This document shows, one piece after another, positions 5,779 through 32,802 of a stretch of DNA of 47,866 nucleotides. Below the pieces are notes generated by a model that did not search any database, had not been told where the DNA came from, and saw only the letters and a program-made list of their open reading frames with translations. Position numbers and translations under genes: made by a program. Source of the stretch: Candidatus Pacearchaeota archaeon (lineage in GTDB: Archaea > Nanobdellota > Nanobdellia > Pacearchaeales > GW2011-AR1); the NCBI GenBank assembly GCA_018304325.1, contig JAGVWM010000021.1, positions 1 to 47,866 on the forward strand, in the 5' to 3' direction. Within the stretch, counting starts at the first letter, position 1. Every line of letters starts with the position of its first letter.

Positions 5779-6606
5779 TTATTTAGGTGTAGGTTGTACA
5801 CAATTTCTCAAAGCAAATTGCATTATCTTTCCAGTTTTAGTATCAGTTACAGTGTAAACTTTTTCATCATCTCCTGTTTGATCTTTGGCTATACTAACCC
5901 AAGTATTTGTTCTCATAATTAATGTGTAATCACTATTACAATATATTGCTTCTTGGTAAATTATTTTTTGGATTATTATTGCCATGTCATACAAAGGAGT
6001 AAAAGTTGATATTTCTACTGAACTGAATTTTCTTTGCTCATCAGCTTTTTTTATGTTTATATCTGCATCAATACTAACTTTAGCTTTATCAGGAACTAAA
6101 CTTATTGCAAACCCCTTATAATTAACACTTACTTGATAAGCTTTAGATTCATAATCAGCTTTCATCTGGTTCACACAATTAGATACTTTATTATTCATAT
6201 AAAGATGAATTTCATTTTCTAAATGTTCTATCCAAACAGCTTCCGAAGGATAACATTTTTCCCCAGTATTTCCAGTATAGCATAAATAAGGTAAATCTCG
6301 CCCTTTGTAACTTTTTGTCTTTTGAGGAAGTTGTATATATCCTGAGTTTGTAATAATTTTATCTACAGATTCTTCTAAACTACTTTGGATACAACTTTCC
6401 AAAAAATCTTTAGGATTATCAGAGCTGGTAGGTTTTATAGACAAATCATTTTTCTTGAATAATACAAAAAGGAGTATTATTGCAACAACTATAATTATTG
6501 CTAATATTACAAATATTGTCACTTGCGAGCGCTTTGACTTTACTAAATCATTATTAGAACTGAAAGTAAAAACGCTAGTTGCTTTCTTATTTTGTTTTTT
6601 TAGCAT
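5779..6606 (-). CDS. Pilin-like protein with class III signal peptide (paralogue of 1046..1939)
   Basis: MLKKQNKKATSVFTFSSNNDLVKSKRSQVTIFVILAIIIVVAIILLFVLF, with the same architecture and conserved Cys positions as 1046..1939. Confidence 0.6.
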   Translation of the reverse strand: MLKKQNKKATSVFTFSSNNDLVKSKRSQVTIFVILAIIIVVAIILLFVLFKKNDLSIKPTSSDNPKDFLESCIQSSLEESVDKIITNSGYIQLPQKTKSYKGRDLPYLCYTGNTGEKCYPSEAVWIEHLENEIHLYMNNKVSNCVNQMKADYESKAYQVSVNYKGFAISLVPDKAKVSIDADINIKKADEQRKFSSVEISTFTPLYDMAIIIQKIIYQEAIYCNSDYTLIMRTNTWVSIAKDQTGDDEKVYTVTDTKTGKIMQFALRNCVQPTPK

Positions 6607-6610
6607 TTTC

Positions 6611-6820
6611 TTATTTTACCATCCATAAATTTACACCATCTTTTTTTATTCTTTCTATTTTATTATCTACAACTAACTCTAATAAATACTTGTCGGCAGT
6701 ATTCCAGGATATCTTGAAATGTTTCGCGACTTCAGAACTAGTAACAACTCTACTTTTTTTTATAAATTCTAAAATTTTATTGTTATGAATATTCATATCA
6801 TAAAACATAGTAATAATCAT
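6611..6820 (-). CDS. Small winged-helix DNA-binding protein
   Basis: KILEFIKKSRVVTSSEVAKHFKISWNTADKYLLELVVDNKIERIKK is an HTH-like pattern. It lies 4 nt upstream of the pilin-like gene. Confidence 0.5.
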   Translation of the reverse strand: MIITMFYDMNIHNNKILEFIKKSRVVTSSEVAKHFKISWNTADKYLLELVVDNKIERIKKDGVNLWMVK

Positions 6821-6895
6821 ATTATTATTTATATGAAGATAAATATTACTACTAATATGTATAATAATACAAAGTATTTAAACATTTTTATTGGT

Positions 6896-6916
6896 ATACA
6901 TTGTTACTTTAATTGG
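6896..6916 (+). repeat. Left terminal inverted repeat
   Basis: ATACATTGTTACTTTAATTGG, preceded by TATTGGT. Confidence 0.8.
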
Positions 6917-6980
6917 CCTTTTTGTCTTTTGAGTTTTAGGGTGCCGATATATTTAAAAAGTTCTGGCACCTAATTAATTT

Positions 6981-7139
6981 ATGAAAATAATGAAAGTTTT
7001 GGACAAAAAAATTGGTGATGTGGAGTATATTAAGTTTAGAATTAATCTACCTAAACAAGTTGTTGAAAATTCAGGATTAAAAGAAAAAGAAGTTAAAGTT
7101 AGAGAAGAAAAAGGGAAAATTATAATTGAGAAGGAATAA
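6981..7139 (+). CDS. AbrB/SpoVT-like small DNA-binding protein (52 aa)
   Basis: MKIMKVLDKKIGDVEYIKFRINLPKQVVENSGLKEKEVKVREEKGKIIIEKE fits the swapped-hairpin pattern (x-I-x-I/L-P-K-x-V/I ... G-K-I-I-I). It is below the ORF-track cutoff. TATA-like GATATATTTAAAA lies about 23 nt upstream. Confidence 0.5.
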   Translation: MKIMKVLDKKIGDVEYIKFRINLPKQVVENSGLKEKEVKVREEKGKIIIEKE

Positions 7140-8487
7140 TTCCCTTTACTAAGTATTTGCTTGTCTTTGTTGTTCCTTGATGTTCTAACAACCCTGCACT
7201 AACCAATTCATTTAATATTTTTAAAGCAGTTACTCTTGAAACACCTAGATATTTCATTACATTTGATGAGGTTATTATTTTATTTTTCTTTATCATCGTG
7301 TATAATCTTATCATCTTTATATCTTTAGATATTTTTGAACTCAAGCTTATTTTAACATAGAATGAAGATGGCGAATCTCCAATTACCTTAAATTCAGGCT
7401 CTATTTTACGTAAACGTTCAAGTTCTTCTTTTATTTTCCATATACCTTCTCCTCTACCTTCATATAATTGTTTTGGATTAAGGAATGTATAAAGTCCTTC
7501 ATTAGGATGATATGTAGTATGACTAAATAATATATCTGCCCACATTTTTTCAGAAACTACTGCAGGATTGCTTATATCAAAACAATCTGCAAATATTCTT
7601 ATCCTAATGTGCTCACTACTTCGGTAATTTCTATGAGCTACAGAGTTAGTAATGACTTCACGGATTACACTTACAGGAATTGTTGGGGATTCAATCATCT
7701 TAGCACCCTCGTATCTTCTTTCAATAGGTAAGTTTTGTATAAGTATTTGAGTCGCTTCCTCAATTAAGAGACCTGCAGGTCTTGACAACTTTATTGAAGT
7801 TCCGATTGGAATTGGAGAACTACCCAAAACATTTTCATACTTTTGAATTTCTATAAATGCTCCTTCAACATATTCAACTGGATTTTTAGATAATGCAATT
7901 ACTCCCCGTATAGTAATTGAACCATTATGGGTAATGCTTTCTAGGATATTTTTTTCATCTTTAACCAGAAGTTTGGAATATTTTTTTAATTCATCTTTAT
8001 CAACATCTTCTTTGGTAGCATGAGTTGGTAAATTTTCAATATTAACACCCCCATAAACAATATGATAACGCCTTACTTCTTCAGGTTGCAAAGGTAAACA
8101 TGATTCTCCTTTTCTTTCGTAGAAAGTTTTTTTATAAGCACATGGCTTTAACTCCCCAACATCTCTAACTTCTATAAGACCTAAGTTTTTGCCTTTATAT
8201 AAAATAATCTTAGATTTAGTTAATGGGGAAGGTTTAACATTATTAATAGCTTGAGAAAATGTTCGCTGGAATTCATCTTCATCAACTCCAATTATTTCTC
8301 CCCCTTGTTTCAGGTCTCTTTGCCCAACAAGAATTACGCCACCAATTTTAGTCCCAAAACTTGCTATTCTAATTCCTATATTTTCCTGGTCACAAGTAGT
8401 TCTGTCAAAAGTTTCACTTTCAGAGTATTCTATAAGCTTCTCACTACTTAAATTATAAATCGTGTCTAATGCTACTTTGTCTTCCAT
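7120..8487 (-). CDS. AlbA_2 (Schlafen-like) + HATPase_c_4 + C-terminal wHTH putative regulator / ATP-binding protein
   Basis: N-terminus: ...IASFGTKIGGVILVGQRD...IGV...LIEVRDVG..P..YKKTFYERKGESCLPL (divergent AAA/AlbA_2 pattern). Middle: VIREVITNSVAHRNYRSSEHIRIRIF (HATPase_c_4 pattern). C-terminus: SSNVMKYLGVSRVTALKILNELVSAGLL (wHTH). Confidence 0.6.
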   Translation of the reverse strand: MEDKVALDTIYNLSSEKLIEYSESETFDRTTCDQENIGIRIASFGTKIGGVILVGQRDLKQGGEIIGVDEDEFQRTFSQAINNVKPSPLTKSKIILYKGKNLGLIEVRDVGELKPCAYKKTFYERKGESCLPLQPEEVRRYHIVYGGVNIENLPTHATKEDVDKDELKKYSKLLVKDEKNILESITHNGSITIRGVIALSKNPVEYVEGAFIEIQKYENVLGSSPIPIGTSIKLSRPAGLLIEEATQILIQNLPIERRYEGAKMIESPTIPVSVIREVITNSVAHRNYRSSEHIRIRIFADCFDISNPAVVSEKMWADILFSHTTYHPNEGLYTFLNPKQLYEGRGEGIWKIKEELERLRKIEPEFKVIGDSPSSFYVKISLSSKISKDIKMIRLYTMIKKNKIITSSNVMKYLGVSRVTALKILNELVSAGLLEHQGTTKTSKYLVKGIIPSQL

Positions 8488-14954: not shown

Positions 14955-16671
14955 TTATTCACATTTATGATCTACACAAGTATTTTTTCCAATTTTAATA
15001 CAATCTTCATCAAATTTACAATTTCCTAAGAAACATTTTCGAGGCTTGTCATATACAGGTTCACCATTAATCATTTGAATATCACAGATATACCCCTTTA
15101 GACAGTCATTATTTCTCCTACATTCATCACATTTCCCAAAAAAGTCATTACAGTATGGTCGTTCTGATGGACAGTCTTCATTTTTAATGCATTCCACACA
15201 TTTCGATCGTGCGGGCAATTTTTGGCATTTGTTTAATCCAGGAAGAACTCCAGAATCACTTAAAAATTTACATTCATTATCAGTTAAACAGACCGAACAT
15301 AGAGCTCCACCCATCCCTCCGGTAACACATACTATCCCTCCATTTTTGTCGAAATTACAGTCGGGATTTCTATATCCTTCAGATGTTTTAGTATTTTTTT
15401 TAGGAGTGCATTCTGAACAAATATTATCAACACAATATTTGTATGTGCCAGAATCTTTACATTCGGAATTTTTTCCAGAGAAGCATGTTGGACCATCTGG
15501 GTACATAGCTACACATTTTTCATTAATACACTCTTTGCCTTCTGGACAGTCACTACTATAAATACATTCAGATATCTCTTCTTCTTCAGCCACACAAGAA
15601 GCTGGAAAATTTGGTTCTTGCTTACATATCTCATTTTTATCACACTCAATATTATTCAAGTAGAAATTTTGATCTTTCTTGCATACTATTTGAAAATCTT
15701 CTTCAGGAGTATCTTCATTGCATTTCTTTGTATTTTTATTACATTTTTTTAATTCATCGTCTTTTGAAATGCAACTTCCCTGACTGCATATTTCACCATT
15801 TTCACAATTCTTTTTTTCCCATCCAAATCCGTTGCTTCTGCATATTTTAAAATCTGTTTTATCCTCAGGTTTAGCTTTAAAATCTGCTTTATTCTCAGTT
15901 TTAGCTATGCATTTAGTTGCTCCAGGAGTGCATCTTATACCTCTTTCATTTCCTCCAGCAACACAAACATTTTCATAATTGCAAATTAATCCTTCGTTAC
16001 AACCTCCTCCGCACTCTCCTCCACAACCATCATTTCCGCATTCTGTTCCAAGGCAGTTCAGCCATGCATTGCATGAGCTTCCTGTACACACACCTGCATT
16101 GCATGTTTCTCCTGTTGAGCACGATCCACAAGTAACATATCCTCCACAACCATCTAACCAAGTACCACATTCATATCCATAAGATGGACATGTTTGCGGA
16201 ACACAATTTCCACCATCATCACTTACACAATCTCCATAATCATTGCAAGTCTCTCCATTATTGCAGTCGTTATTTTCATAACACTCTCCACAATATCCAT
16301 TTTTGCAGTATGGCTCCCTATGTCTTGAGTCATCCCGGCAAAATTCATTAGTTCCATCATGCCTATTATTATCATCTAGTTCTCCATCATCTGAAAGTTC
16401 CCCATCATCTGAATTAAGGGAAACATCACATTCCACGCCCTGAACTACATTACCAGTTATTCCAATAACATTACCTGATATAACTTCTCCAGTTAAACTG
16501 GATTTATTTTTAATTAATAATCCGATAATAATTAATGCAAGAACTAAAATAAAGTTAAACTGGATTTATTTTTAATTAATAATCCGATAATAATTAATGC
16601 AAGAACTAAAATAATAACACAGATAGCAATTAATAATCTTTTATTAAAATTAGTTTTATTTTTGTTCACCA
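14955..16671 (-). pseudogene. Cys-rich surface protein whose signal-anchor is disconnected by a 62-bp tandem duplication
   Basis: The ATG at 16671 gives MVNKNKTNFNKRLLIAICVIILVLALIIIGLLIKNKSSLT, then a frameshift and stop at 16510. Removing one 62-bp copy joins it in frame to ...GEVISGNVIGITGNVVQGVECDVSLNSDDGE (ORF 14955..16436). It is a paralogue of 24677..26359. Confidence 0.65.
16491..16614. repeat. Perfect 62-bp tandem duplication (2 copies)
   Basis: GTTAAACTGGATTTATTTTTAATTAATAATCCGATAATAATTAATGCAAGAACTAAAATAA(A) occurs at 16491-16552 and again at 16553-16614. Confidence 0.85.
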
Positions 16672-18789: not shown

Positions 18790-18892
18790 CCATTTTCTTT
18801 GTATCAATACCATTCCCAATTCTTTAACATTGTTACCACTACATAATTTCTCAAAGAGAAAACTTTATAAATAGACCATTTATTAATAAATT

Positions 18893-19585
18893 ATGGAAAG
18901 TGTAGAGTGTGGAATAGTTGATGTAGAACCAAGAAGTTCACTTCCAGAAACAAGATTAGAAACAAGATTACTTAGAGTTCCACACAAAAATGGGATATTG
19001 GTTGTTAGATATCCTGCTTTTGGACCAAATTCTTATTCAAGTAATTTAGAAAGTATGGGAAAAAGATATTTTCATTCAACCCGATTTCCAGATATTTCAT
19101 TCAGACCAGCAACTACACCTGAATCTGTTTCAGCATCTGCTTATAAATTTGGAAAAATAGCAAAGAAAGAAATTTTTAATCCAAATTGTTTACAAGTAGG
19201 ACCTATTGTAAGAACATCAGAAGGAGTTTTTGCAAATACTAAAGAAGTTGATGAATCAGTTCTTAAATTTGCATATACAGAATATGAAACATTTAAGAAT
19301 GGATTTCAAGATTCTAGAGATTTTTCTGAAAGTGGTTTAGCAAGGCTATTAGAGCACACTTGTGAAAGCTCAGCACCAAATCTAAGAGAAATTTCTTCAG
19401 CTGAAAATTATCCAAATGGAGTTAAGGTTTTTGGATTTGATAGTGTTAAGGAACCTGTATTAAGAGTTGCCGGTCTGTATTCCTACGGGAGCGGATTGCG
19501 TGTTGATGGCGGCCTTGGTGACGGGGGCGGTTATGCTTTTGGGGTGCGTAGTACAGACGCCTTAGGCGTCGTCGAAAAAAATTAG
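18893..19585 (+). CDS. DGR target protein (C-terminal variable region)
   Basis: The last ~37 codons (GLYSYGSGLRVDGGLGDGGGYAFGV...) align to the A-rich template at 19840-19914. No signal peptide. Confidence 0.7.
   Translation: MESVECGIVDVEPRSSLPETRLETRLLRVPHKNGILVVRYPAFGPNSYSSNLESMGKRYFHSTRFPDISFRPATTPESVSASAYKFGKIAKKEIFNPNCLQVGPIVRTSEGVFANTKEVDESVLKFAYTEYETFKNGFQDSRDFSESGLARLLEHTCESSAPNLREISSAENYPNGVKVFGFDSVKEPVLRVAGLYSYGSGLRVDGGLGDGGGYAFGVRSTDALGVVEKN
19475..19546 (+). repeat. DGR variable repeat (VR1)
   Basis: CTG TAT TCC TAC GGG AGC GGA TTG CGT GTT GAT GGC GGC CTT GGT GAC GGG GGC GGT TAT GCT TTT GGG GTG, in frame with ORF 18893..19585. Confidence 0.75.
19556..19570 (+). promoter_or_regulatory. 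GC-rich hairpin just 3' of VR1 (candidate DGR target-recognition element)
   Basis: GACGCC-TTA-GGCGTC. It is absent at the equivalent position after the TR. Confidence 0.5.
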
Positions 19586-19839
19586 AAGGTTTTATTAATA
19601 AATAATTCTTGTTCATCTAGTCTTAGTTTGGTATTAATGCCTTTCTAGGGCCACACGCCTATTAACCAGTACATCATTTAAATTTATTTTATGTTATAAA
19701 ATACAATCTTGACATTAAGTAATAATTTTAATAAGAATAAATTATGAAATATGAAAAGATGGTGCTTCCTTTGAGAAAACTCATTGACTAGAAGTCCTTT
19801 TTAGGAAAGGTTAAGAGGCTATGTAGTTCTGTCGCTTAT

Positions 19840-19914
19840 CTGAATTCCAACAGGAACAGATTACATGTTAATGGCAACAACCTTGATAACAGGAACGGCT
19901 TTGCTTTTGGAATG
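19840..19914 (+). repeat. DGR template repeat (TR)
   Basis: CTG AAT TCC AAC AGG AAC AGA TTA CAT GTT AAT GGC AAC AAC CTT GAT AAC AGG AAC GGC TTT GCT TTT GGA ATG. It is non-coding, and 8 of its 25 triplets are AAY. Confidence 0.75.
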
Positions 19915-20027
19915 GCCCTAGTTCTAAGACCTTTTATTTTTTTAATGCTCTATAAAAAGATTACAAAATATCCACCCATAAATTTTCGCATAATTAAATT
20001 TATTAATCCTTATTCTATATTAGTTTA

Positions 20028-24676: not shown

Positions 24677-26359
24677 CTACTGAGTTGGAATATTTACAAA
24701 ATTGCAGAATGGTAATCCTCCTGGATGATTGTCACATACCGCAGTTTTTGGACAACATTGTTTGTATCTTATGTTATCTTTTGTTCCAGAGCATAATCTT
24801 TCATCATCTTGATTTCCAACAATATTATCTATTCCATCTGAATCACAAGAGTTTTCATTTATTGGAACGCATACTGGTAAATTTCCTATAGTTGAAAGTT
24901 CACATTTTTCCACATCATCGGGTGTTCCCTTTATACTATCTGGTCCAACATCACAACAAATATTTTCTCCACTATCTATTGTTCCACAATAGTTTTGAGT
25001 ATTTTTATCGCAAGTTCTACCTTTAGGTACACAAAAACCAACATTACCTGCTGGAGAAGAAGTTATTCCACAAGTATATTCAGCTTTTTCACAGCAAGCA
25101 GCTCTCACAACATTTGCTCCTGTACAAAAGTTATAATTATCTTTAGGTTCAGGACAATATTTGGGAACGCATTTATTTATTCCAGATGTTTCACATATTT
25201 CTCTTGGACTATCACAACAAAAATCAATAGCTCCATTACAATAAATAGTATCAAAACTACATCCACCACAAGTTGTTCCTGAACTAAATGTGGCCTTGCA
25301 ATTATTTCCTTTATTGTTAAGATAGTCCTTACATTCACTATTTTTAACATTTTTTGGATCGTTACAATTTCCTCTAAAACCTTCATTAACCCAGCTACAG
25401 CACCCATAAATTGGATTGTTTTTATCTTCTAAGCAACATGTACTTCCAGATTCTTTACAATAATAATTATCATCTTTATTTTGACAATTTACTTCAGGTT
25501 TACATTCATAAATTGATTTTCCATCATTACTTAATTGTCCTTTAGGGCACAATGGTTTTACATCACATTTCACGCTTCCATCAGTAGATTTTGTACATGT
25601 TGGATGAGATGTACATTTGCCTTTAATACATAATTCATCTTCATTACAATCAAAAGGTCCAGCCCAAAATAAACTATAAGTGCAAACTTCAAATTGTGTA
25701 CTTATGCCATCATTGTCTTTATCAACGCATTTCTTTTTCCCATTTCTTTTGCATTGTCCAAAGCATTTTTCACAATAACTTCCTCCACAATCTATCCCAG
25801 TTTCATCTCTATTTTGTATTCCATCTGAACAAGTTCCTTCATTTGGATCAGGTGTGCATCTTTGTTGTTCTAAAGGCCTTGTGTCAGAATTACAATTGCT
25901 ATTAACATCATTACATGTTCTCCATTGATATCCTTGTAATGAACAAACACTCCAAGGGTCACACAACCATTCACAGCTATTGCCTCCTCCACCACCAGTT
26001 GAAGAAACACAATCTCCATAATAATTACAAGTCTCTCCAGTATTGCAGTCGTTATCTTTATAACACTCTCCACAATATCCATTCTTGCAATATGGTTCAC
26101 TATGGTCAGATTCATCTCGGCAAAATTCATTAACTCCATCATATCTATTATTATCTAGTTCCCCATCATCAGAATTAAGTGAAGGATCGCATTCCTCGCC
26201 TTGAACTACATTACCAGTTATTCCAATAACATCTCCTGTTATTGTATTTGCTGTTAAACCAAACTTATTTTTTATTAATAATCCAACACCAATTAATGCA
26301 AGAACTAAAATAATAACACAGATAGCAATTAATAATTTTTTATTAGAACTGCTTTTCAT
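24677..26359 (-). CDS. Cys-rich surface protein (intact paralogue of 14955..16671)
   Basis: MKSSSNKKLLIAICVIILVLALIGVGLLIKNK...ITGDVIGITGNVVQGEECDPSLNSDDGE...YCKNGYCGECYKDNDCNTGETCNYYGDCVS. The rest is >10% Cys and diverges from the paralogue. Confidence 0.65.
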   Translation of the reverse strand: MKSSSNKKLLIAICVIILVLALIGVGLLIKNKFGLTANTITGDVIGITGNVVQGEECDPSLNSDDGELDNNRYDGVNEFCRDESDHSEPYCKNGYCGECYKDNDCNTGETCNYYGDCVSSTGGGGGNSCEWLCDPWSVCSLQGYQWRTCNDVNSNCNSDTRPLEQQRCTPDPNEGTCSDGIQNRDETGIDCGGSYCEKCFGQCKRNGKKKCVDKDNDGISTQFEVCTYSLFWAGPFDCNEDELCIKGKCTSHPTCTKSTDGSVKCDVKPLCPKGQLSNDGKSIYECKPEVNCQNKDDNYYCKESGSTCCLEDKNNPIYGCCSWVNEGFRGNCNDPKNVKNSECKDYLNNKGNNCKATFSSGTTCGGCSFDTIYCNGAIDFCCDSPREICETSGINKCVPKYCPEPKDNYNFCTGANVVRAACCEKAEYTCGITSSPAGNVGFCVPKGRTCDKNTQNYCGTIDSGENICCDVGPDSIKGTPDDVEKCELSTIGNLPVCVPINENSCDSDGIDNIVGNQDDERLCSGTKDNIRYKQCCPKTAVCDNHPGGLPFCNFVNIPTQ

Positions 26360-28978: not shown

Positions 28979-29305
28979 TGTATAACTTTAATGTATAACT
29001 ATTATATAAATCTTGCTAATTGTATGTTAAGTATTAAGGTTTACTTAACATAATTCAGAATCTTATATCTTACAAATCCCTTCCAAGCAAAGTTCTCCTG
29101 TTATTTGCCTTTGCCCCTTTTTATTCCATCTTTTAAAATATCTTCAACAACTCTTTCAAGTTATCAAGAAACATCAGCAGAAACACTTGATATAGATTTT
29201 TCTTTATCGAGCTCTTCAATTGCTTTCTTAATATTATTTTCTTTTATTAGTCTGCTCATTTTTATCATTTATATTAAAAATAATTTATTAATAAACTTAA
29301 TAAAT

Positions 29306-29569
29306 TTATTTTATTATGCCCTTTAATTCAGGGAGATTCATTTCTATAAAATATACAATTTCTTGTTTATATTCATTATTTAGTGAAATTCCAGTATAAC
29401 TTGGTTTATTATGTACTATAACCCATCCAATCTTAGAAAGTTCTTTTATTATGTCCTTTAAATTTTGAAATTTCTTAAAATGTTCCATTCTATCATACTT
29501 ACCACCCCAATTACCTTTTCCTCTTGCTAAAATTGACATAAGTTGAGCTTTTTCAAGATCACTTGCCAT
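29306..29569 (-). CDS. Hypothetical small protein (87 aa)
   Basis: Clean ORF. No motif recognised. Confidence 0.4.
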   Translation of the reverse strand: MASDLEKAQLMSILARGKGNWGGKYDRMEHFKKFQNLKDIIKELSKIGWVIVHNKPSYTGISLNNEYKQEIVYFIEMNLPELKGIIK

Positions 29570-29666
29570 AATAATATAAAAATTCCACTTATTTAAATGT
29601 TGCTATTATTGAAATATTAATATACTTAATAGAAAGATTTAAATATCATATAAATATAATACCCAT

Positions 29667-29993
29667 ATGAAACAAAAAGAAAATAAATCATTTTTTTTAA
29701 TGCAATTTGGAGACACTCCCCAGCTTAGAGTTATAGATTTTTTAATAGGATTTCGTTTTTTTGATTATCCTATGACTGAAATAGCTAAAGAAAGCAATGT
29801 AAGTTATAATTCAATTAAATTATTCTTCCAGAATTTTATTGCTTCTGGTTTAGTTATTAAAACAAGAAAAGTAGGAAAATCAGATTATTATAAGTTAAAT
29901 ATGGATAATGATTTTGTAAAAAACCTTGTTAAGTTGGACTGGATGCTTGTAAAGAAAAATGTTCTTTCAGAAATTAAGGAAGCTGCTGTTTAA
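29667..29993 (+). CDS. Winged-helix transcriptional regulator
   Basis: PQLRVIDFLIGFRFFDYPMTEIAKESNVSYNSIKLFFQNFIASGLVIKTRKVGKSDYYKLN. Confidence 0.5.
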   Translation: MKQKENKSFFLMQFGDTPQLRVIDFLIGFRFFDYPMTEIAKESNVSYNSIKLFFQNFIASGLVIKTRKVGKSDYYKLNMDNDFVKNLVKLDWMLVKKNVLSEIKEAAV

Positions 29994-30033
29994 CAGCAGC
30001 TTATTCTGTTACCACTAATAAATTTATATAAAT

Positions 30034-30783
30034 ATGAACACAAAAAAACTGACTGGAAGATTTGAATGGCAAAGGCCAGAAGTAATGCCTTCTTTTGTTA
30101 AAGGTGATGATGCCCAAGAATTATGTTATGCTGTCAAAGAAGGTTTTGGATTTTTTGATTACGATGCTAATGAAAAATTAATGAAAGGAAGCAATCCTTT
30201 CATTTCAGCTAGAATTGACACAGAAGTAAGACCTTTAGGATTAAGGGTTGCTAACTTAAGAGATTTAAGCAGACCAGAAGTTATGGCTATGGTTGAAGGC
30301 AGATATTATTCTGATAGCCCAGTTTTAGTTGTTAGGAGCAATAAAGATTCTAATACAAGAAACCTGCCTCTTATAAAAATAATTTCAGAGCTGACAGAAG
30401 GTGTAGATGGGAGAGTTGAATTTCCTTTTATGCTAACTGGTTATGATGTTGTTAAATTGCCAGAAGATGAAGATGGTTATGGAGTAGATATTGTTAAAAG
30501 AGAGGATTTTAAAGCTGTGCATGATGACAGACTTTCTGGAAAATATAATGGCTGGAAATTTGATAATGTTGATGAAATAGGTTTGCCTTCAGGTTTAAAT
30601 AAATCAAAAGGATCTAGGACTTTATATACAAAGGATGAAGGGCTTGCTGGGTTCTGCTTGGACTGGGACTTAGACTTGGTCTCGGTTGATGGTAACCTTC
30701 AGGGTTCGAATGCTATTGGTCGGGTAGTCGTCGTAAGCGCCTTCAGCGCTTCGCAAAATTTGGATAAATATATAGAAGATTAG
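30034..30783 (+). CDS. Second DGR-target-like protein (VR-like C-terminus), directly abutting the RT remnant
   Basis: The C-terminus LAGFCLDWDLDLVSVDGNLQGSNAIGRVVVV shares the scaffold L-x-V-[DN]-G-x-L...[AF]-[FI]-G with VR1 and the TR. It is A-poor and is followed by a GC hairpin. Confidence 0.55.
   Translation: MNTKKLTGRFEWQRPEVMPSFVKGDDAQELCYAVKEGFGFFDYDANEKLMKGSNPFISARIDTEVRPLGLRVANLRDLSRPEVMAMVEGRYYSDSPVLVVRSNKDSNTRNLPLIKIISELTEGVDGRVEFPFMLTGYDVVKLPEDEDGYGVDIVKREDFKAVHDDRLSGKYNGWKFDNVDEIGLPSGLNKSKGSRTLYTKDEGLAGFCLDWDLDLVSVDGNLQGSNAIGRVVVVSAFSASQNLDKYIED
30658..30723 (+). other. VR2-like segment (no cognate TR in window)
   Basis: TTG GAC TGG GAC TTA GAC TTG GTC TCG GTT GAT GGT AAC CTT CAG GGT TCG AAT GCT ATT GGT CGG. 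The GTT GAT GGT AAC CTT block aligns to TR GTT AAT GGC AAC (AAC) CTT. Confidence 0.4.
30735..30751 (+). promoter_or_regulatory. GC-rich hairpin 3' of VR2-like segment
   Basis: AAGCGC-CTTCA-GCGCTT. Confidence 0.45.
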
Positions 30784-31378
30784 GGGATATTGCTTAAAAG
30801 CAGATATAAAACATTACTTTGAAGAAGTTGATAATGATATTTTATTAGAAATAATAAAGAGAAAAATAAAAGATGAAAAAGTTATATGTCTTATAGAAAA
30901 GATTTTAGGAAACAATTCTGTTGGGAAGCATTCAGACAAAGGAATGCCATTAGGCAATTTAACTTCCCAATTTTTTGCAAATATTTATCTTAATGAATTA
31001 GACTATTTTGTCAAACATAAATTAAAAGCTAAATATTATATAAGATATGTTGATGATTTTATCATTCTCCATAATTCAAAATCACAACTAAAAGAATGGA
31101 AAAATGAAATTAATAACTTTTTAAAAAATGGGCTGAAGTTAGAACTGCATCCAGACAAATCAAAGATTATTTCGCTTTCAAGTGGAGTTGACTTTGTTGG
31201 ATTTATAAATTTTTATTATTTTAAATTACTAAGAAAAAGAAACATAAAAAACATTGAAAGAAAAATTAAAATGTTTAATGAAGGTTTAATTAGCAAGGAT
31301 AAGTTGTTAGAAAGTTTTCAAGGATGGAAGGCATATGCAAAATGGGCAGATAGTTATAAATTTAATAAACAATTTTAA
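30776..31378 (+). pseudogene. DGR-type reverse transcriptase, 5'-truncated (fingers motifs 1-2 missing)
   Basis: The frame is open from 30776: KIRGYCLKADIKHYFEEVDNDILL...GMPLGNLTSQFFANIYLNELD...YIRYVDDFIILH...GVDFVGF. The LGxxxSQ and YVDD motifs are DGR-RT-like. Only ~200 aa are present, and homology starts immediately after the upstream gene's stop. Confidence 0.7.
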
Positions 31379-31386
31379 TAAGTGGA

Positions 31387-32802
31387 TTATAGCTTAATTT
31401 TCTCTTTTTTATTCTCTTCAATTCCTTCAGGTTTCAACAACGGAAATATAACTGTTTCTCTTATAGGCCGATTAACTAAATAAGAAAATAATCTTTCACT
31501 TACTCCAAAACCACAAGTTGGAGGCATTCCATATTTCAAAGCTTCCACAAAACCCTTATCATGATCCATACTTTCACTATCTCCTGCTTTCTTCATCTCC
31601 ATTTGTTTTTTCAACCTTTCATCTTGATCAATAGGGTCATTTAATTCAGAATAACCATTTCCTAATTCAGTTCCAGCAATTATAACCTGGAACTGCTCAA
31701 CTTTTCTCAAGTCTTTAGAATCTCTTTTTGCTAAAGGAGTAATTTCAACAGGCTGTCCAATAAGGAATCCAGGCCCTGAAAGCTTTTTTCTACAATATTT
31801 CCATAAACTATCTACTAGTCTCCATTTTTTCATTTTAGGATCATATTCAACTTTTAACTGATCTAATTTTTTCTTTATTTCAGATTCAGAAGTTTTCCAA
31901 ATATCAACCCCAGTATGTTTCTTAATCAATTTATCATATTCATAAATTTCCCATTTTTTCCCGAGGTCTACTTTATATCCATGAGTTTCAAATTTCAGGG
32001 TGTTTAGAACTTCTTTTGCAACTTTCTTATACATTTCTTCAACTAACTTCATCCCATCTTTATAACTTGCATATGCTAGATAAAATTCCATTTGAGTATA
32101 ATCTTGTAAATGTTCCATATCCATACCTTCATTTCTAAATTGTCTTCCAATTTCAAAAGTTTTTCCATAACCAGCAACCATTAACTTCTTTTGCCATAAT
32201 TCTCCCATTGAAATTCTTAAGTAAACATCTATATCAAGAGCGTTATGATGTGTTTTAAACGGAGTCGCTGCTGCTCCTCCAGCTGAAGTTTCCAACACAG
32301 GAGTTTCTACCTCTAAAAATCCTTTATCTAATAGAAAGCTCCTTATTGTTTGCCAGAACTTTTGTTTTTTAATAAACAGTTCTCTAATTTCCAGATTCAT
32401 TAAAATGTCTAGATATCTTTTTCTTAGCTTTTCTTCATCATCAACTAAACCATGGTACTTTTCAGGAAGTGGAAGTATAGACTTTGTAAGTAATTCAATA
32501 TTCTTAATTAATATAGAAAGTTCACCTGTTTTTGTTCTAAGCATAATTCCTTCCACCCCGATAAAATCCCCAGAATCAATATATTTTTTAAAAAACTCAA
32601 ATTTTTTAGATGGAGTTTCATCTTGTTGGGAGACTAATTGTATTCTTCCAGAAGAATCTTGTAGTGTAGCAAATGATATTTTTCCAAGATCTCTTTTAAT
32701 TATAACTCTTCCAGCAACAGAAACCTTATCTTTAGTTTTCACTTTTCTCAAATCTTCAACTTTCTTAATTCTAGATTCAATGATTTGGTCTTCTCGTCCC
32801 AT
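31387..32802 (-). CDS. lysS: Lysyl-tRNA synthetase, class II
   Basis: OB-fold N-terminus (VSVAGRVIIKRDLGKISFATLQDSSGRIQLV). Motif 2 region FEIGRQFRNEGMDMEHLQDYTQMEFY. Motif 3 region PPTCGFGVSERL. Confidence 0.85.
   Translation of the reverse strand: MGREDQIIESRIKKVEDLRKVKTKDKVSVAGRVIIKRDLGKISFATLQDSSGRIQLVSQQDETPSKKFEFFKKYIDSGDFIGVEGIMLRTKTGELSILIKNIELLTKSILPLPEKYHGLVDDEEKLRKRYLDILMNLEIRELFIKKQKFWQTIRSFLLDKGFLEVETPVLETSAGGAAATPFKTHHNALDIDVYLRISMGELWQKKLMVAGYGKTFEIGRQFRNEGMDMEHLQDYTQMEFYLAYASYKDGMKLVEEMYKKVAKEVLNTLKFETHGYKVDLGKKWEIYEYDKLIKKHTGVDIWKTSESEIKKKLDQLKVEYDPKMKKWRLVDSLWKYCRKKLSGPGFLIGQPVEITPLAKRDSKDLRKVEQFQVIIAGTELGNGYSELNDPIDQDERLKKQMEMKKAGDSESMDHDKGFVEALKYGMPPTCGFGVSERLFSYLVNRPIRETVIFPLLKPEGIEENKKEKIKL

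What the first reader, a model, noticed from the sequence alone, without database searches (positions are those of the whole stretch)
30034..31378. 5'-truncated DGR reverse transcriptase fused end-to-end to a second target-like gene, 11 kb from the TR
RT homology (CLKADIKHYFEEVD..., PLGNLTSQFFANIYL, YVDDFIIL, GVDFVGF) begins within a few nucleotides of the stop of ORF 30034..30783. The roughly 100+ residues carrying fingers motifs 1-2 are absent, and no ORF nearby supplies them. The usual accessory gene and TR between target and RT are also missing. This looks like a deletion from the end of VR2 into the RT, leaving an orphan target. The only TR in the window sits 11 kb away beside a different target. 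Either the element is dead, or another RT acts in trans.
Basis: partly seen in the sequence, partly recalled or inferred. Interest (0 to 1): 0.75.

Follow-up and report, generated by a model that had tools for sequence, protein, structure and literature searches.

The report
Deletion-killed archaeal DGR with orphan target
A roughly 0.8-kb deletion in a groundwater Pacearchaeota genome removed the template repeat, its RNA element and the front third of the reverse transcriptase of a diversity-generating retroelement, leaving a frozen target gene fused to a dead enzyme stub; this is an ordinary case of retroelement decay.

Summary
The window is a whole contig of a Candidatus Pacearchaeota MAG. 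ORF 30034-30783 belongs to a small family of DGR target proteins. Its variable repeat (VR2, 30641-30727) still carries the adenine-mutagenesis signature when compared with the template repeat (TR) of the closest intact relative.

The RT frame opens at 30776 and matches only the C-terminal ~200 of ~350 residues, from motif 3 onward. No N-terminal piece exists anywhere in the window.

Intact relatives are organised target – RT-16 RNA – TR – RT. Here about 0.8 kb is gone: the last ~27 target codons, the RT-16 RNA, the TR and ~137 RT codons. Fourteen independently assembled contigs share the junction, so it is not an assembly artefact.

VR2 is identical in 13 of 13 contigs that span it. Its downstream hairpin has lost the conserved GAA loop. 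The cassette 11 kb upstream (target1, RT-16 RNA, TR1, no RT) is also decaying.

I conclude the element is dead. Rescue in trans is unlikely but not excluded, because the rest of the genome could not be searched.

Side findings: RT-16 RNA abuts the TR in all eight cassettes examined, and RT-less target–RT-16–TR cassettes with clean adenine-only TR/VR pairs recur in relatives.

The parts
30034..30783 (+). target2: DGR variable-protein gene (249 aa), C-terminally truncated. Identical to MBS3066744.1 (J4205_02870).
   Evidence: It belongs to a family of 35 proteins. Members sit in intact target–RT-16–TR–RT cassettes. The alignment shows the tail is lost after 'NLDKYI' compared with the long forms. 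The AF2 model has pLDDT 91.8; Foldseek gives only weak hits, enriched in C-type lectins.
30641..30727 (+). VR2, a frozen variable repeat
   Evidence: Against the TR of L009 it aligns over 87 nt without gaps, with 20 mismatches. Sixteen fall at TR adenines, which make up 27 of the 87 TR positions. It is identical at nucleotide level in 13 of 13 contigs that span it.
30736..30750 (+). Hairpin downstream of VR2 with an altered loop (AGCGC-CTTCA-GCGCT)
   Evidence: Seven other cassettes carry GCC-GAA-GGC with a GAA loop. Here the sequence looks like the loop flipped plus one mismatch. GRA loops are described as highly constrained in nanoarchaeal DGRs (PMC4372165), and loop sequence and size are critical in phage BPP-1 (PMC3240598).
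30761..30786 (.). Deletion junction zone. Target-frame and RT-frame homologies overlap here, so the exact breakpoint is ambiguous (possible microhomology at TGGATAAAT or AGATTA).
   Evidence: Homology to the sister haplotype starts at 30787. Three of 14 contigs lack the 6 nt TAGGGG at 30781-30786.
30776..31378 (+). 5'-truncated DGR-type RT remnant: motifs 3-7 plus thumb, 200 codons and a stop. The only ATG-initiated ORF is 30944-31378 (144 aa). GenBank annotates it as MBS3066745.1 (199 aa).
18893..19585 (+). target1: a second, unrelated DGR variable-protein gene carrying a 24-aa in-frame deletion after residue 125 (J4205_02785)
   Evidence: It shows no similarity to target2.
19473..19563 (+). 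VR1, frozen and slightly decayed
   Evidence: Against TR1 there are 20 adenine mismatches, 6 non-adenine mismatches and 5 gap columns, including a 3-nt deletion. Its protein sequence is identical in the window and seven type-a relatives, whereas sister type-b genes show 4 alleles.
19556..19570 (+). Hairpin downstream of VR1 with loop TTA instead of GAA
19621..19827 (+). RT-16 RNA (Rfam RF03019), immediately 5' of TR1
   Evidence: 81 bits against a gathering score of 50. It has the same position relative to the TR in L003, L009, L012, L016, L017, L034 and L035.
19838..19933 (+). TR1, the only template repeat in the window. It is cognate to VR1, not to VR2.
   Evidence: It differs at 2 positions from the nearly identical TR of L016.

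Best explanation
This is the relic of a chromosomal diversity-generating retroelement (DGR) of the nanoarchaeal/Pacearchaeota type. The normal layout is target gene (VR plus GAA-loop hairpin) – RT-16 RNA – TR – RT.

A single deletion of about 0.8 kb removed the last ~27 codons of the target, the RT-16 RNA, the TR and the first ~137 codons of the RT. The breakpoints lie within 30761-30786, possibly at a short microhomology. This step is shown by comparison with intact relatives.

The target ORF now reads into RT-derived sequence in another frame and stops at TAG 30781-30783. In a derived variant that lost 6 nt, it stops 11 codons later.

The RT stub lacks the fingers motifs. It has no start codon upstream of the motif-3 aspartate, so only a 144-aa C-terminal piece could be translated. 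Catalytic inactivity is inferred from this.

Without a TR or an RT, mutagenic retrohoming into VR2 has stopped, and VR2 is a fixed allele in the population. The invariance is shown; the causal link is inferred.

The cassette 11 kb upstream (target1 – RT-16 – TR1) has no RT of its own. It probably depended on this RT in trans, and it is now decaying as well. That dependence is inferred.
For: Truncation:
- Pfam RVT_1 covers profile positions 69-204 of 205 only.
- The fragment aligns to 8ub7_A residues 133-314 of 328.
- Homologues are 335-352 aa.
- No N-terminal fragment is present in the window.

Canonical layout in relatives:
- L009, L011, L012 and L003 carry an RT-16 RNA abutting a TR, followed by a full-length RT.
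- Neither element is present at 29000-32000.

Target truncation and VR identity:
- The family alignment shows the lost tail.
- VR2 has 16 of 20 mismatches at adenines of the L009 TR.

The junction is real: 14 contigs from different samples and assemblers share it.

Inactivity:
- VR2 is identical in 13 of 13 contigs, although SNPs exist elsewhere in the gene.
- The hairpin loop is changed from the conserved GAA (PMC4372165, PMC3240598).
- TR1 does not match VR2.

System-wide decay:
- target1 has a 24-aa deletion.
- VR1/TR1 carry an indel and non-adenine mismatches, and VR1 is invariant.
- By contrast, sister cassettes have clean adenine-only pairs and several VR alleles.
Against: One low-coverage contig (L005) starts inside VR2. 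It carries 5 differences that look like genuine DGR products: the codons are AAT/TAT/GAT where the window has GGT/AAT/ATT. It also carries the derived 6-nt-deleted junction. This could mean diversification after the deletion, or recombination with an intact strain.

RT-less cassettes with pristine TR/VR pairs exist in relatives (L016/L019, L034). Trans-acting RTs are therefore plausible in this group.

The other contigs of this MAG could not be searched. The strains compared are nearly clonal (0-4 differences per kb), so an invariant VR2 reflects only a short evolutionary time.
Confidence: 0.8

Rival explanations
1. target2 is an orphan (remote) target that is still diversified in trans, by a full-length RT and a cognate TR encoded on another contig of the same genome.
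For: Relatives carry RT-less target–RT-16–TR cassettes with clean adenine-only mismatches and no RT within up to 10 kb (L016/L019, L034). One variant VR2 allele (L005) carries the truncated junction. Trans action of DGR components is documented (PMC5758913, PMC10907252).
Against: No TR matching VR2 is present in the window. VR2 is identical in 13 of 13 contigs. The hairpin loop no longer fits the GRA consensus, which is critical in BPP-1 and constrained in nanoarchaeal DGRs (PMC3240598, PMC4372165). The second cassette of the same contig, which has its own TR, is also frozen and decaying, which argues that no active RT is present.
Confidence: 0.1
2. The RT stub (144-200 aa: palm motifs 4-7 plus thumb) is retained as a functional, domesticated protein rather than being a pseudogene.
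For: The frame is open for 201 codons in a 30% GC genome. Segment 30944-31375 differs by only 2 nt from the sister haplotype, although the preceding 156 nt differ at 44 positions.
Against: Both differences are non-synonymous. The near-identity equals that of the flanking core genes, so it reflects recent common ancestry and a recombination boundary rather than constraint. The fingers motifs are missing, and the motif-3 Asp lies upstream of the only start codon. In the sister haplotype the upstream part of the RT is out of frame with this same 144-aa C-terminal ORF (frameshift just before GMPLGN).
Confidence: 0.05
3. The truncation is an assembly or sequencing artefact, or the RT is a split gene whose N-terminal half is encoded elsewhere.
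For: VR/TR repeats can break or mis-join metagenome assemblies. Split genes are known in Nanoarchaeota (general knowledge).
Against: The same junction appears in 14 contigs from MEGAHIT, SPAdes, IDBA-type scaffolds and JGI assemblies of different samples. No repeat spans the junction. The target's own tail is truncated at the same point, as expected for a deletion. No N-terminal RT fragment is present in the window. Relatives encode the RT as one ORF.
Confidence: 0.03

Closest known systems
Nanoarchaeota/DPANN DGRs, including the 'fragmentary DGRs' of DUSEL4 single-cell genomes (Paul et al. 2015, PMC4372165)
   Same: The targets are orphan proteins of ~250 aa. The IMH pair is TGGGGT (VR) versus TGGAAT (TR), as seen in VR1/TR1. 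A trinucleotide GRA-loop hairpin lies inside the target gene. No Avd gene is evident. Incomplete cassettes scattered in the genome were already noted there.
   Different: Here the lesion can be reconstructed base by base against intact relatives. The hairpin loops are non-GRA (TTA; CTTCA). A curated RNA family (RT-16) is shown to sit 5' of the TR.
Bordetella phage BPP-1 DGR (mtd–avd–TR–brt), the prototype
   Same: The RT is related: the best PDB match of full-length homologues is the 328-aa chain 8ub7_A at E 3.7e-41. I believe this chain is bRT, from memory. Both show adenine-specific TR-to-VR differences and a GC-rich hairpin downstream of the VR.
   Different: There is no avd. The structured RNA lies 5' of the TR, not in a spacer between TR and RT. 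The host is an archaeon. This copy lacks the TR and the RT fingers domain.
Incomplete or disrupted DGR loci of Thiohalocapsa PB-PSB1 (Doré et al. 2024, PMC10907252)
   Same: A population contains DGR loci with disrupted RT or TR alongside structural variants, and there are remote targets that may or may not be serviced in trans. One locus there (DGR 1) is not diversified.
   Different: Disruption there is linked to transposons. Here it is a simple internal deletion, and a frameshift in the sister haplotype, with no mobile element at the junction.
Rfam RT-16 RNA (RF03019; Weinberg et al. 2017, PMC5737381)
   Same: It is an RNA motif found near RT genes. The authors speculated that some RT motifs belong to DGRs.
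   Different: Here its position is defined. Its 3' end lies within 0-12 nt of the TR start in 8 of 8 cassettes. It also occurs in cassettes that have no RT gene.

Membership tests
Diversity-generating retroelement (DGR) | RT of the DGR clade, with the motif-4 signature [LIV]GxxxSQ | tested here: met
   PLGNLTSQ is present. The best solved-structure match of full-length homologues is 8ub7_A at E 3.7e-41, against about 1e-17 for group II and retron-type RTs. Homologues sit next to adenine-biased TR/VR pairs. None of the libraries available here holds a DGR-specific RT profile.
Diversity-generating retroelement (DGR) | Complete, catalytically competent RT (motifs 1-7) | tested here: not met
   Only RVT_1 profile positions 69-204 of 205 and 8ub7_A residues 133-314 are covered. 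No start codon lies before 30944. No N-terminal piece is in the window.
Diversity-generating retroelement (DGR) | Cognate TR whose differences from the VR fall at adenines | tested here: not met
   No sequence in the window matches VR2, even when mismatches at adenines are allowed. VR2 does show 16 of 20 mismatches at adenines of the TR of relative L009, so it was once a VR.
Diversity-generating retroelement (DGR) | GC-rich hairpin downstream of the VR with a GRA/GRNA loop | tested here: not met
   A hairpin is present at 30736-30750, but with a 5-bp stem and a CTTCA loop. Seven other cassettes have a GAA loop.
Diversity-generating retroelement (DGR) | Ongoing VR diversification in the population | tested here: not met
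   VR2 is identical in 13 of 13 contigs that span it. One partial variant exists (L005). This was tested on assembled contigs only, not on reads.
Diversity-generating retroelement (DGR) | Accessory protein (Avd) | tested here: inconclusive
   No ORF lies between target and RT in the intact relatives L009, L012 and L003. Avd therefore appears not to be part of this clade's cassette. Small ORFs elsewhere were not examined by structure.
Group II intron RT/maturase | Score above the TIGR04416 cut-off, plus flanking intron RNA domains | tested here: not met
   Scores are 114-153 bits against a cut-off of 300. No group II intron RNA was found by Rfam.
Retron RT / defence-associated RTs (DRT, UG, Abi) | Score above the curated family cut-offs, plus msr/msd or effector context | tested here: not met
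   retron_St85 scores 50-54 against 235, Drt3a 75-79 against 200 and AbiA 42 against 250. PADLOC hits are generic RT similarities. No retron ncRNA was found by Rfam.
Rfam RT-16 RNA (RF03019) | Covariance-model score above the gathering threshold (50 bits) | tested here: met
   Window 19621-19827 scores 81 bits. The motif is absent from 29000-32000 at E <= 1.

The most novel reading that the evidence does not exclude
These Pacearchaeota may run a modular DGR network. One RT gene would serve several self-contained target–RT-16 RNA–TR modules scattered around the chromosome, each with its own template. The truncated RT beside lysS would have been the hub, and its loss silenced both modules on this contig.

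Such RT-less modules would be missed by RT-anchored DGR detection. A linked possibility is that the GAA-to-TTN change of the hairpin loop at both frozen VRs is a target-side off switch that preceded loss of the RT.
Probability: 0.35. Interest if true: 0.55.

Novelty: new member of a known kind. Interest (0 to 1): 0.33.

Why it matters
On its own this is a textbook case of retroelement decay. Its value is as a well-resolved natural knockout. Near-clonal groundwater populations carry the deletion, a secondary 6-nt deletion, or a frameshifted sister cassette, and the variable regions are frozen where the RT is broken but variable in sister cassettes.

This gives three things:
- A population-genomic control for DGR activity calls in DPANN archaea.
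- A defined place for the orphan Rfam motif RT-16, immediately 5' of the TR.
- A pointer to RT-less template modules that current RT-centred DGR surveys would overlook.

Tried and rejected
- An ungapped scan of the window for a TR matching VR2, tolerating mismatches at adenines, returned only AT-rich chance hits.
- A gapped alignment of TR1 against VR2 found no match.
- A scan of genome contigs with a VR2/TR2 pattern gave 0 hits, so this MAG is not in that collection and its other contigs could not be searched.
- The same pattern in metagenome contigs found only the L009/L010 contig.
- A PDB sequence search with target2 found nothing meaningful.
- A Foldseek search of a confident model found no significant match, only weak hits enriched in C-type lectins and DGR variable proteins. 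The fold assignment stays open.
- An exact look-up of target1 returned no contig, although the protein is on record as P0162.
- The Paul et al. 2017 paper on CPR/DPANN DGRs is not held.
- A tRNA in the GC-rich VR2 (GGTTCGAAT) was considered and rejected: ARAGORN and Rfam found none.
- A split RT gene and an assembly artefact were considered and rejected.
- The exact breakpoint could not be fixed. Two placements fit, at the TGGATAAAT or the AGATTA microhomology.

Full report
WHAT IS THERE

The window has 30% GC. It is a complete 47,866-nt contig of a Candidatus Pacearchaeota MAG. Target1 is J4205_02785, target2 is MBS3066744.1 (J4205_02870), and the RT stub is annotated MBS3066745.1, 199 aa.

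ORF 30034-30783 encodes 249 aa and ends at TAG 30781-30783. In another frame, an open stretch runs from 30776 to 31378 and reads KIRGYCLKADIKHYFEEVD...PLGNLTSQ...YVDDF...GVDFVGF. Its first start codon is the ATG at 30944, which gives a 144-aa ORF.

THE RT IS TRUNCATED

- Pfam RVT_1 matches at E 4.5e-19, but only to profile positions 69-204 of 205.
- Thousands of homologues exist. The best are 335-352 aa, 66-78% identical, and match only over their last ~200 residues.
- Against solved structures, a full-length homologue (P0002) matches the 328-aa chain 8ub7_A end to end at E 3.7e-41. Group II and 'retron-type' RTs reach only about 1e-17. I believe 8ub7 is the Bordetella DGR RT, but that is from memory.
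- The window fragment aligns to 8ub7_A residues 133-314.
- NCBIfam and PADLOC profiles for group II, retron, Abi and DRT RTs all score below their cut-offs, and the matches start at profile positions of about 110-130.
- tblastn with about 100 full-length RTs finds no N-terminal piece anywhere in the window. The three forward frames upstream of 30776 hold nothing RT-like.

About 130-145 residues, carrying motifs 1-2, are therefore absent.

WHAT THE INTACT ELEMENT LOOKS LIKE

Target2 belongs to a small family of 35 proteins with no Pfam domain. Its closest intact relative, P0122 (62% identical), lies in L009. There the order is target (6001-6831), Rfam RT-16 RNA (6878-7030), TR (7031-7126) and a 352-aa RT (7156-8214).

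L012 and L003 have the same order. Their TR/VR pairs differ almost only at TR adenines: 14-18 adenine mismatches against 0-2 others. These are bona fide DGR cassettes, and none has an ORF between target and RT.

THE LESION

VR2 (30641-30727) aligns without gaps to the L009 TR. It has 20 mismatches, 16 of them at adenines, which make up 27 of the 87 TR positions. VR2 is therefore a former recipient of mutagenic homing from a closely related TR.

Target-frame homology continues through the hairpin and '...SQNLDKYI' to about 30775, where the long-form relatives go on for ~27 more codons.

RT-frame homology begins at about 30761. 'W I N I * K I R G Y C L K A D' compares with 'W I N V N Q I K G Y C L K A D' in P0002 and 'W L N N N Q V K G Y C' in L009, which is about RT codon 137.

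The two homologies overlap by 10-20 nt, so the breakpoint lies within 30761-30786. It may sit at a microhomology (TGGATAAAT or AGATTA), but I could not decide which.

Relative to L009, about 0.8 kb is missing: the target tail, the RT-16 RNA, the TR and ~137 RT codons. Rfam finds no RT-16 in 29000-32000 even at E <= 1.

NOT AN ARTEFACT

Look-ups of the 144-aa product returned 18 contigs from different samples and assemblers. Fourteen carry the same target2–RT junction (L001, L002, L004, L005, L024-L033).

Three of the 14 lack the 6 nt TAGGGG (30781-30786). In those the target ORF runs 11 codons further, giving 260 aa. The 6 nt correspond to the 'R G' codons of the RT frame, which match K G in intact RTs. 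The longer form is therefore ancestral, and the target's stop codon lies within the 30761-30786 junction zone.

A SISTER HAPLOTYPE

Contigs L003 and L006-L008 share the lysS side, but homology to the window begins only at 30787. They carry a different, complete-looking cassette: a 267-aa target, RT-16, a TR and an RT.

Their RT has a frameshift just before GMPLGN in all four assemblies, and L003 has an extra deletion in motif 1.

Between the haplotypes, 30944-31375 differs at 2 nt but 30788-30943 differs at 44 of 156 nt. A recombination boundary therefore lies inside the RT gene, where the frameshift sits. The RT at this locus is broken in two independent ways.

IS VR2 STILL DIVERSIFIED?

All 13 contigs that span VR2 are identical across its 87 nt, while SNPs occur elsewhere in the gene and its flanks. 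TR1 does not match VR2.

The hairpin after VR2 reads AGCGC-CTTCA-GCGCT. Seven other cassettes have GCC-GAA-GGC. Nanoarchaeal DGR hairpins are reported to have highly constrained GRA loops (PMC4372165). In phage BPP-1, replacing loop GAAA with CTTT, or enlarging the loop by 2 nt, reduces homing to near background (PMC3240598).

The one exception is L005, a 2.4x-coverage contig that begins inside VR2. It has five differences that look like real DGR products: codons AAT/TAT/GAT where the window has GGT/AAT/ATT. I cannot tell whether this reflects diversification after the deletion, recombination, or a chimeric contig end.

The strains compared are nearly clonal, so the invariance covers only a short time span.

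THE OTHER CASSETTE (11 KB UPSTREAM)

It consists of target1 (18893-19585), RT-16 RNA (19621-19827, 81 bits) and TR1 (about 19838-19933). A membrane protein gene follows, not an RT.

This RT-less layout recurs:
- L017 is syntenic with the window at 37-55% protein identity.
- L016/L019 and L034 have the same module in other genomic contexts, with no RT within up to 10 kb.
- Those modules have pristine adenine-only TR/VR pairs: 13 and 15 adenine mismatches, 0 others.
- Sister 'type-b' target1 genes show four VR alleles.

Such modules seem to work with an RT supplied in trans.

In the window's lineage, by contrast:
- VR1 is identical in the window and seven related type-a sequences.
- VR1/TR1 carry a 3-nt indel and non-adenine mismatches.
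- The hairpin loop is TTA.
- The window's target1 has a 24-aa in-frame deletion of conserved residues.

This fits loss of the servicing RT, most simply the one truncated 11 kb away. That link is an inference.

VERDICT

The element is a deletion-inactivated DGR with an orphaned, frozen target. Trans rescue is unlikely but not excluded, because the rest of the MAG could not be searched.

Fragmentary and disrupted DGRs are already documented in nanoarchaea (PMC4372165) and in Thiohalocapsa (PMC10907252). This is therefore a new member of a known kind and of modest interest.

The more useful by-products are the consistent placement of RT-16 RNA directly 5' of the TR (8 of 8 cassettes), the recurrent RT-less template modules, and the non-GRA hairpin loops at both frozen VRs.

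Noticed in passing
window 19621-19827; L003 1574-1729; L009 6878-7030; L012 4702-4874; L016 4792-4998; L017 4836-5084; L034 10804-11042; L035 10808-10962: The Rfam RT-16 RNA ends 0-12 nt before the TR starts in all 8 cassettes examined. The discovery paper assigned it no specific role (PMC5737381). It looks like the 5' element of the DGR template RNA in this archaeal clade.
   Followed up: partly
L016 4001-5085; L019 10001-11085; L034 10001-11137; L017 4001-5186; window 18893-19933: RT-less target–RT-16–TR modules recur in different genomic contexts. L016/L019 and L034 have pristine adenine-only TR/VR pairs and no RT within up to 10 kb, which implies RTs acting in trans on remote templates.
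   Followed up: partly
window 19556-19570 and 30736-30750: Both VR-proximal hairpins of this contig have lost the conserved GAA loop (TTA; CTTCA). Each looks like a flipped loop (GAA to TTC) plus one further change. Seven other cassettes keep GAA.
   Followed up: partly
window 19267/19268 (within target1, 18893-19585): An in-frame 72-nt (24-aa) deletion of conserved residues (SLLNKCEKVNGIWLYQDNEPELID) compared with 99%-identical sister sequences P0163, P0164 and P0293.
   Followed up: yes
L003 1835-2818; L006, L007, L008 (sister haplotype of window 30787-31378): A different DGR cassette sits at the same lysS-adjacent site. Its RT is frameshifted just before GMPLGN in four independent assemblies. 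The frameshift coincides with a sharp identity boundary at window 30944: 44 of 156 differences upstream against 2 of 432 downstream.
   Followed up: partly
L005 1-29 (= window 30699-30727): A single low-coverage contig end carries a different VR2 allele (5 changes, all consistent with AAT-codon mutagenesis) on the truncated-junction background. This is unexplained.
   Followed up: partly
window 18831-18873 and ~29972-30014; L003 ~680-700: A shared motif of about 40 nt (core TGTTACCACTA..TAA) lies upstream of the start codons of the unrelated target genes. It may be a common promoter or regulatory element of DGR targets.
   Followed up: no
L035 11062-12182: Another relative has its RT broken into 224-, 58- and 48-aa ORFs next to a pristine TR/VR pair (19 adenine-only mismatches). 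RT pseudogenisation therefore seems recurrent in this group.
   Followed up: no
window 32741-32744 (lysS, 31387-32802, minus strand): The window's lysyl-tRNA synthetase ORF is 471 aa. All related contigs carry about 84 extra nt here and encode 500 aa.
   Followed up: no
window 14955-16436 (-) and 24677-26359 (-): Two large Cys-rich proteins share repeats of 83-87% identity at their N-terminal coding ends. They are paralogues flanking the first DGR cassette.
   Followed up: no
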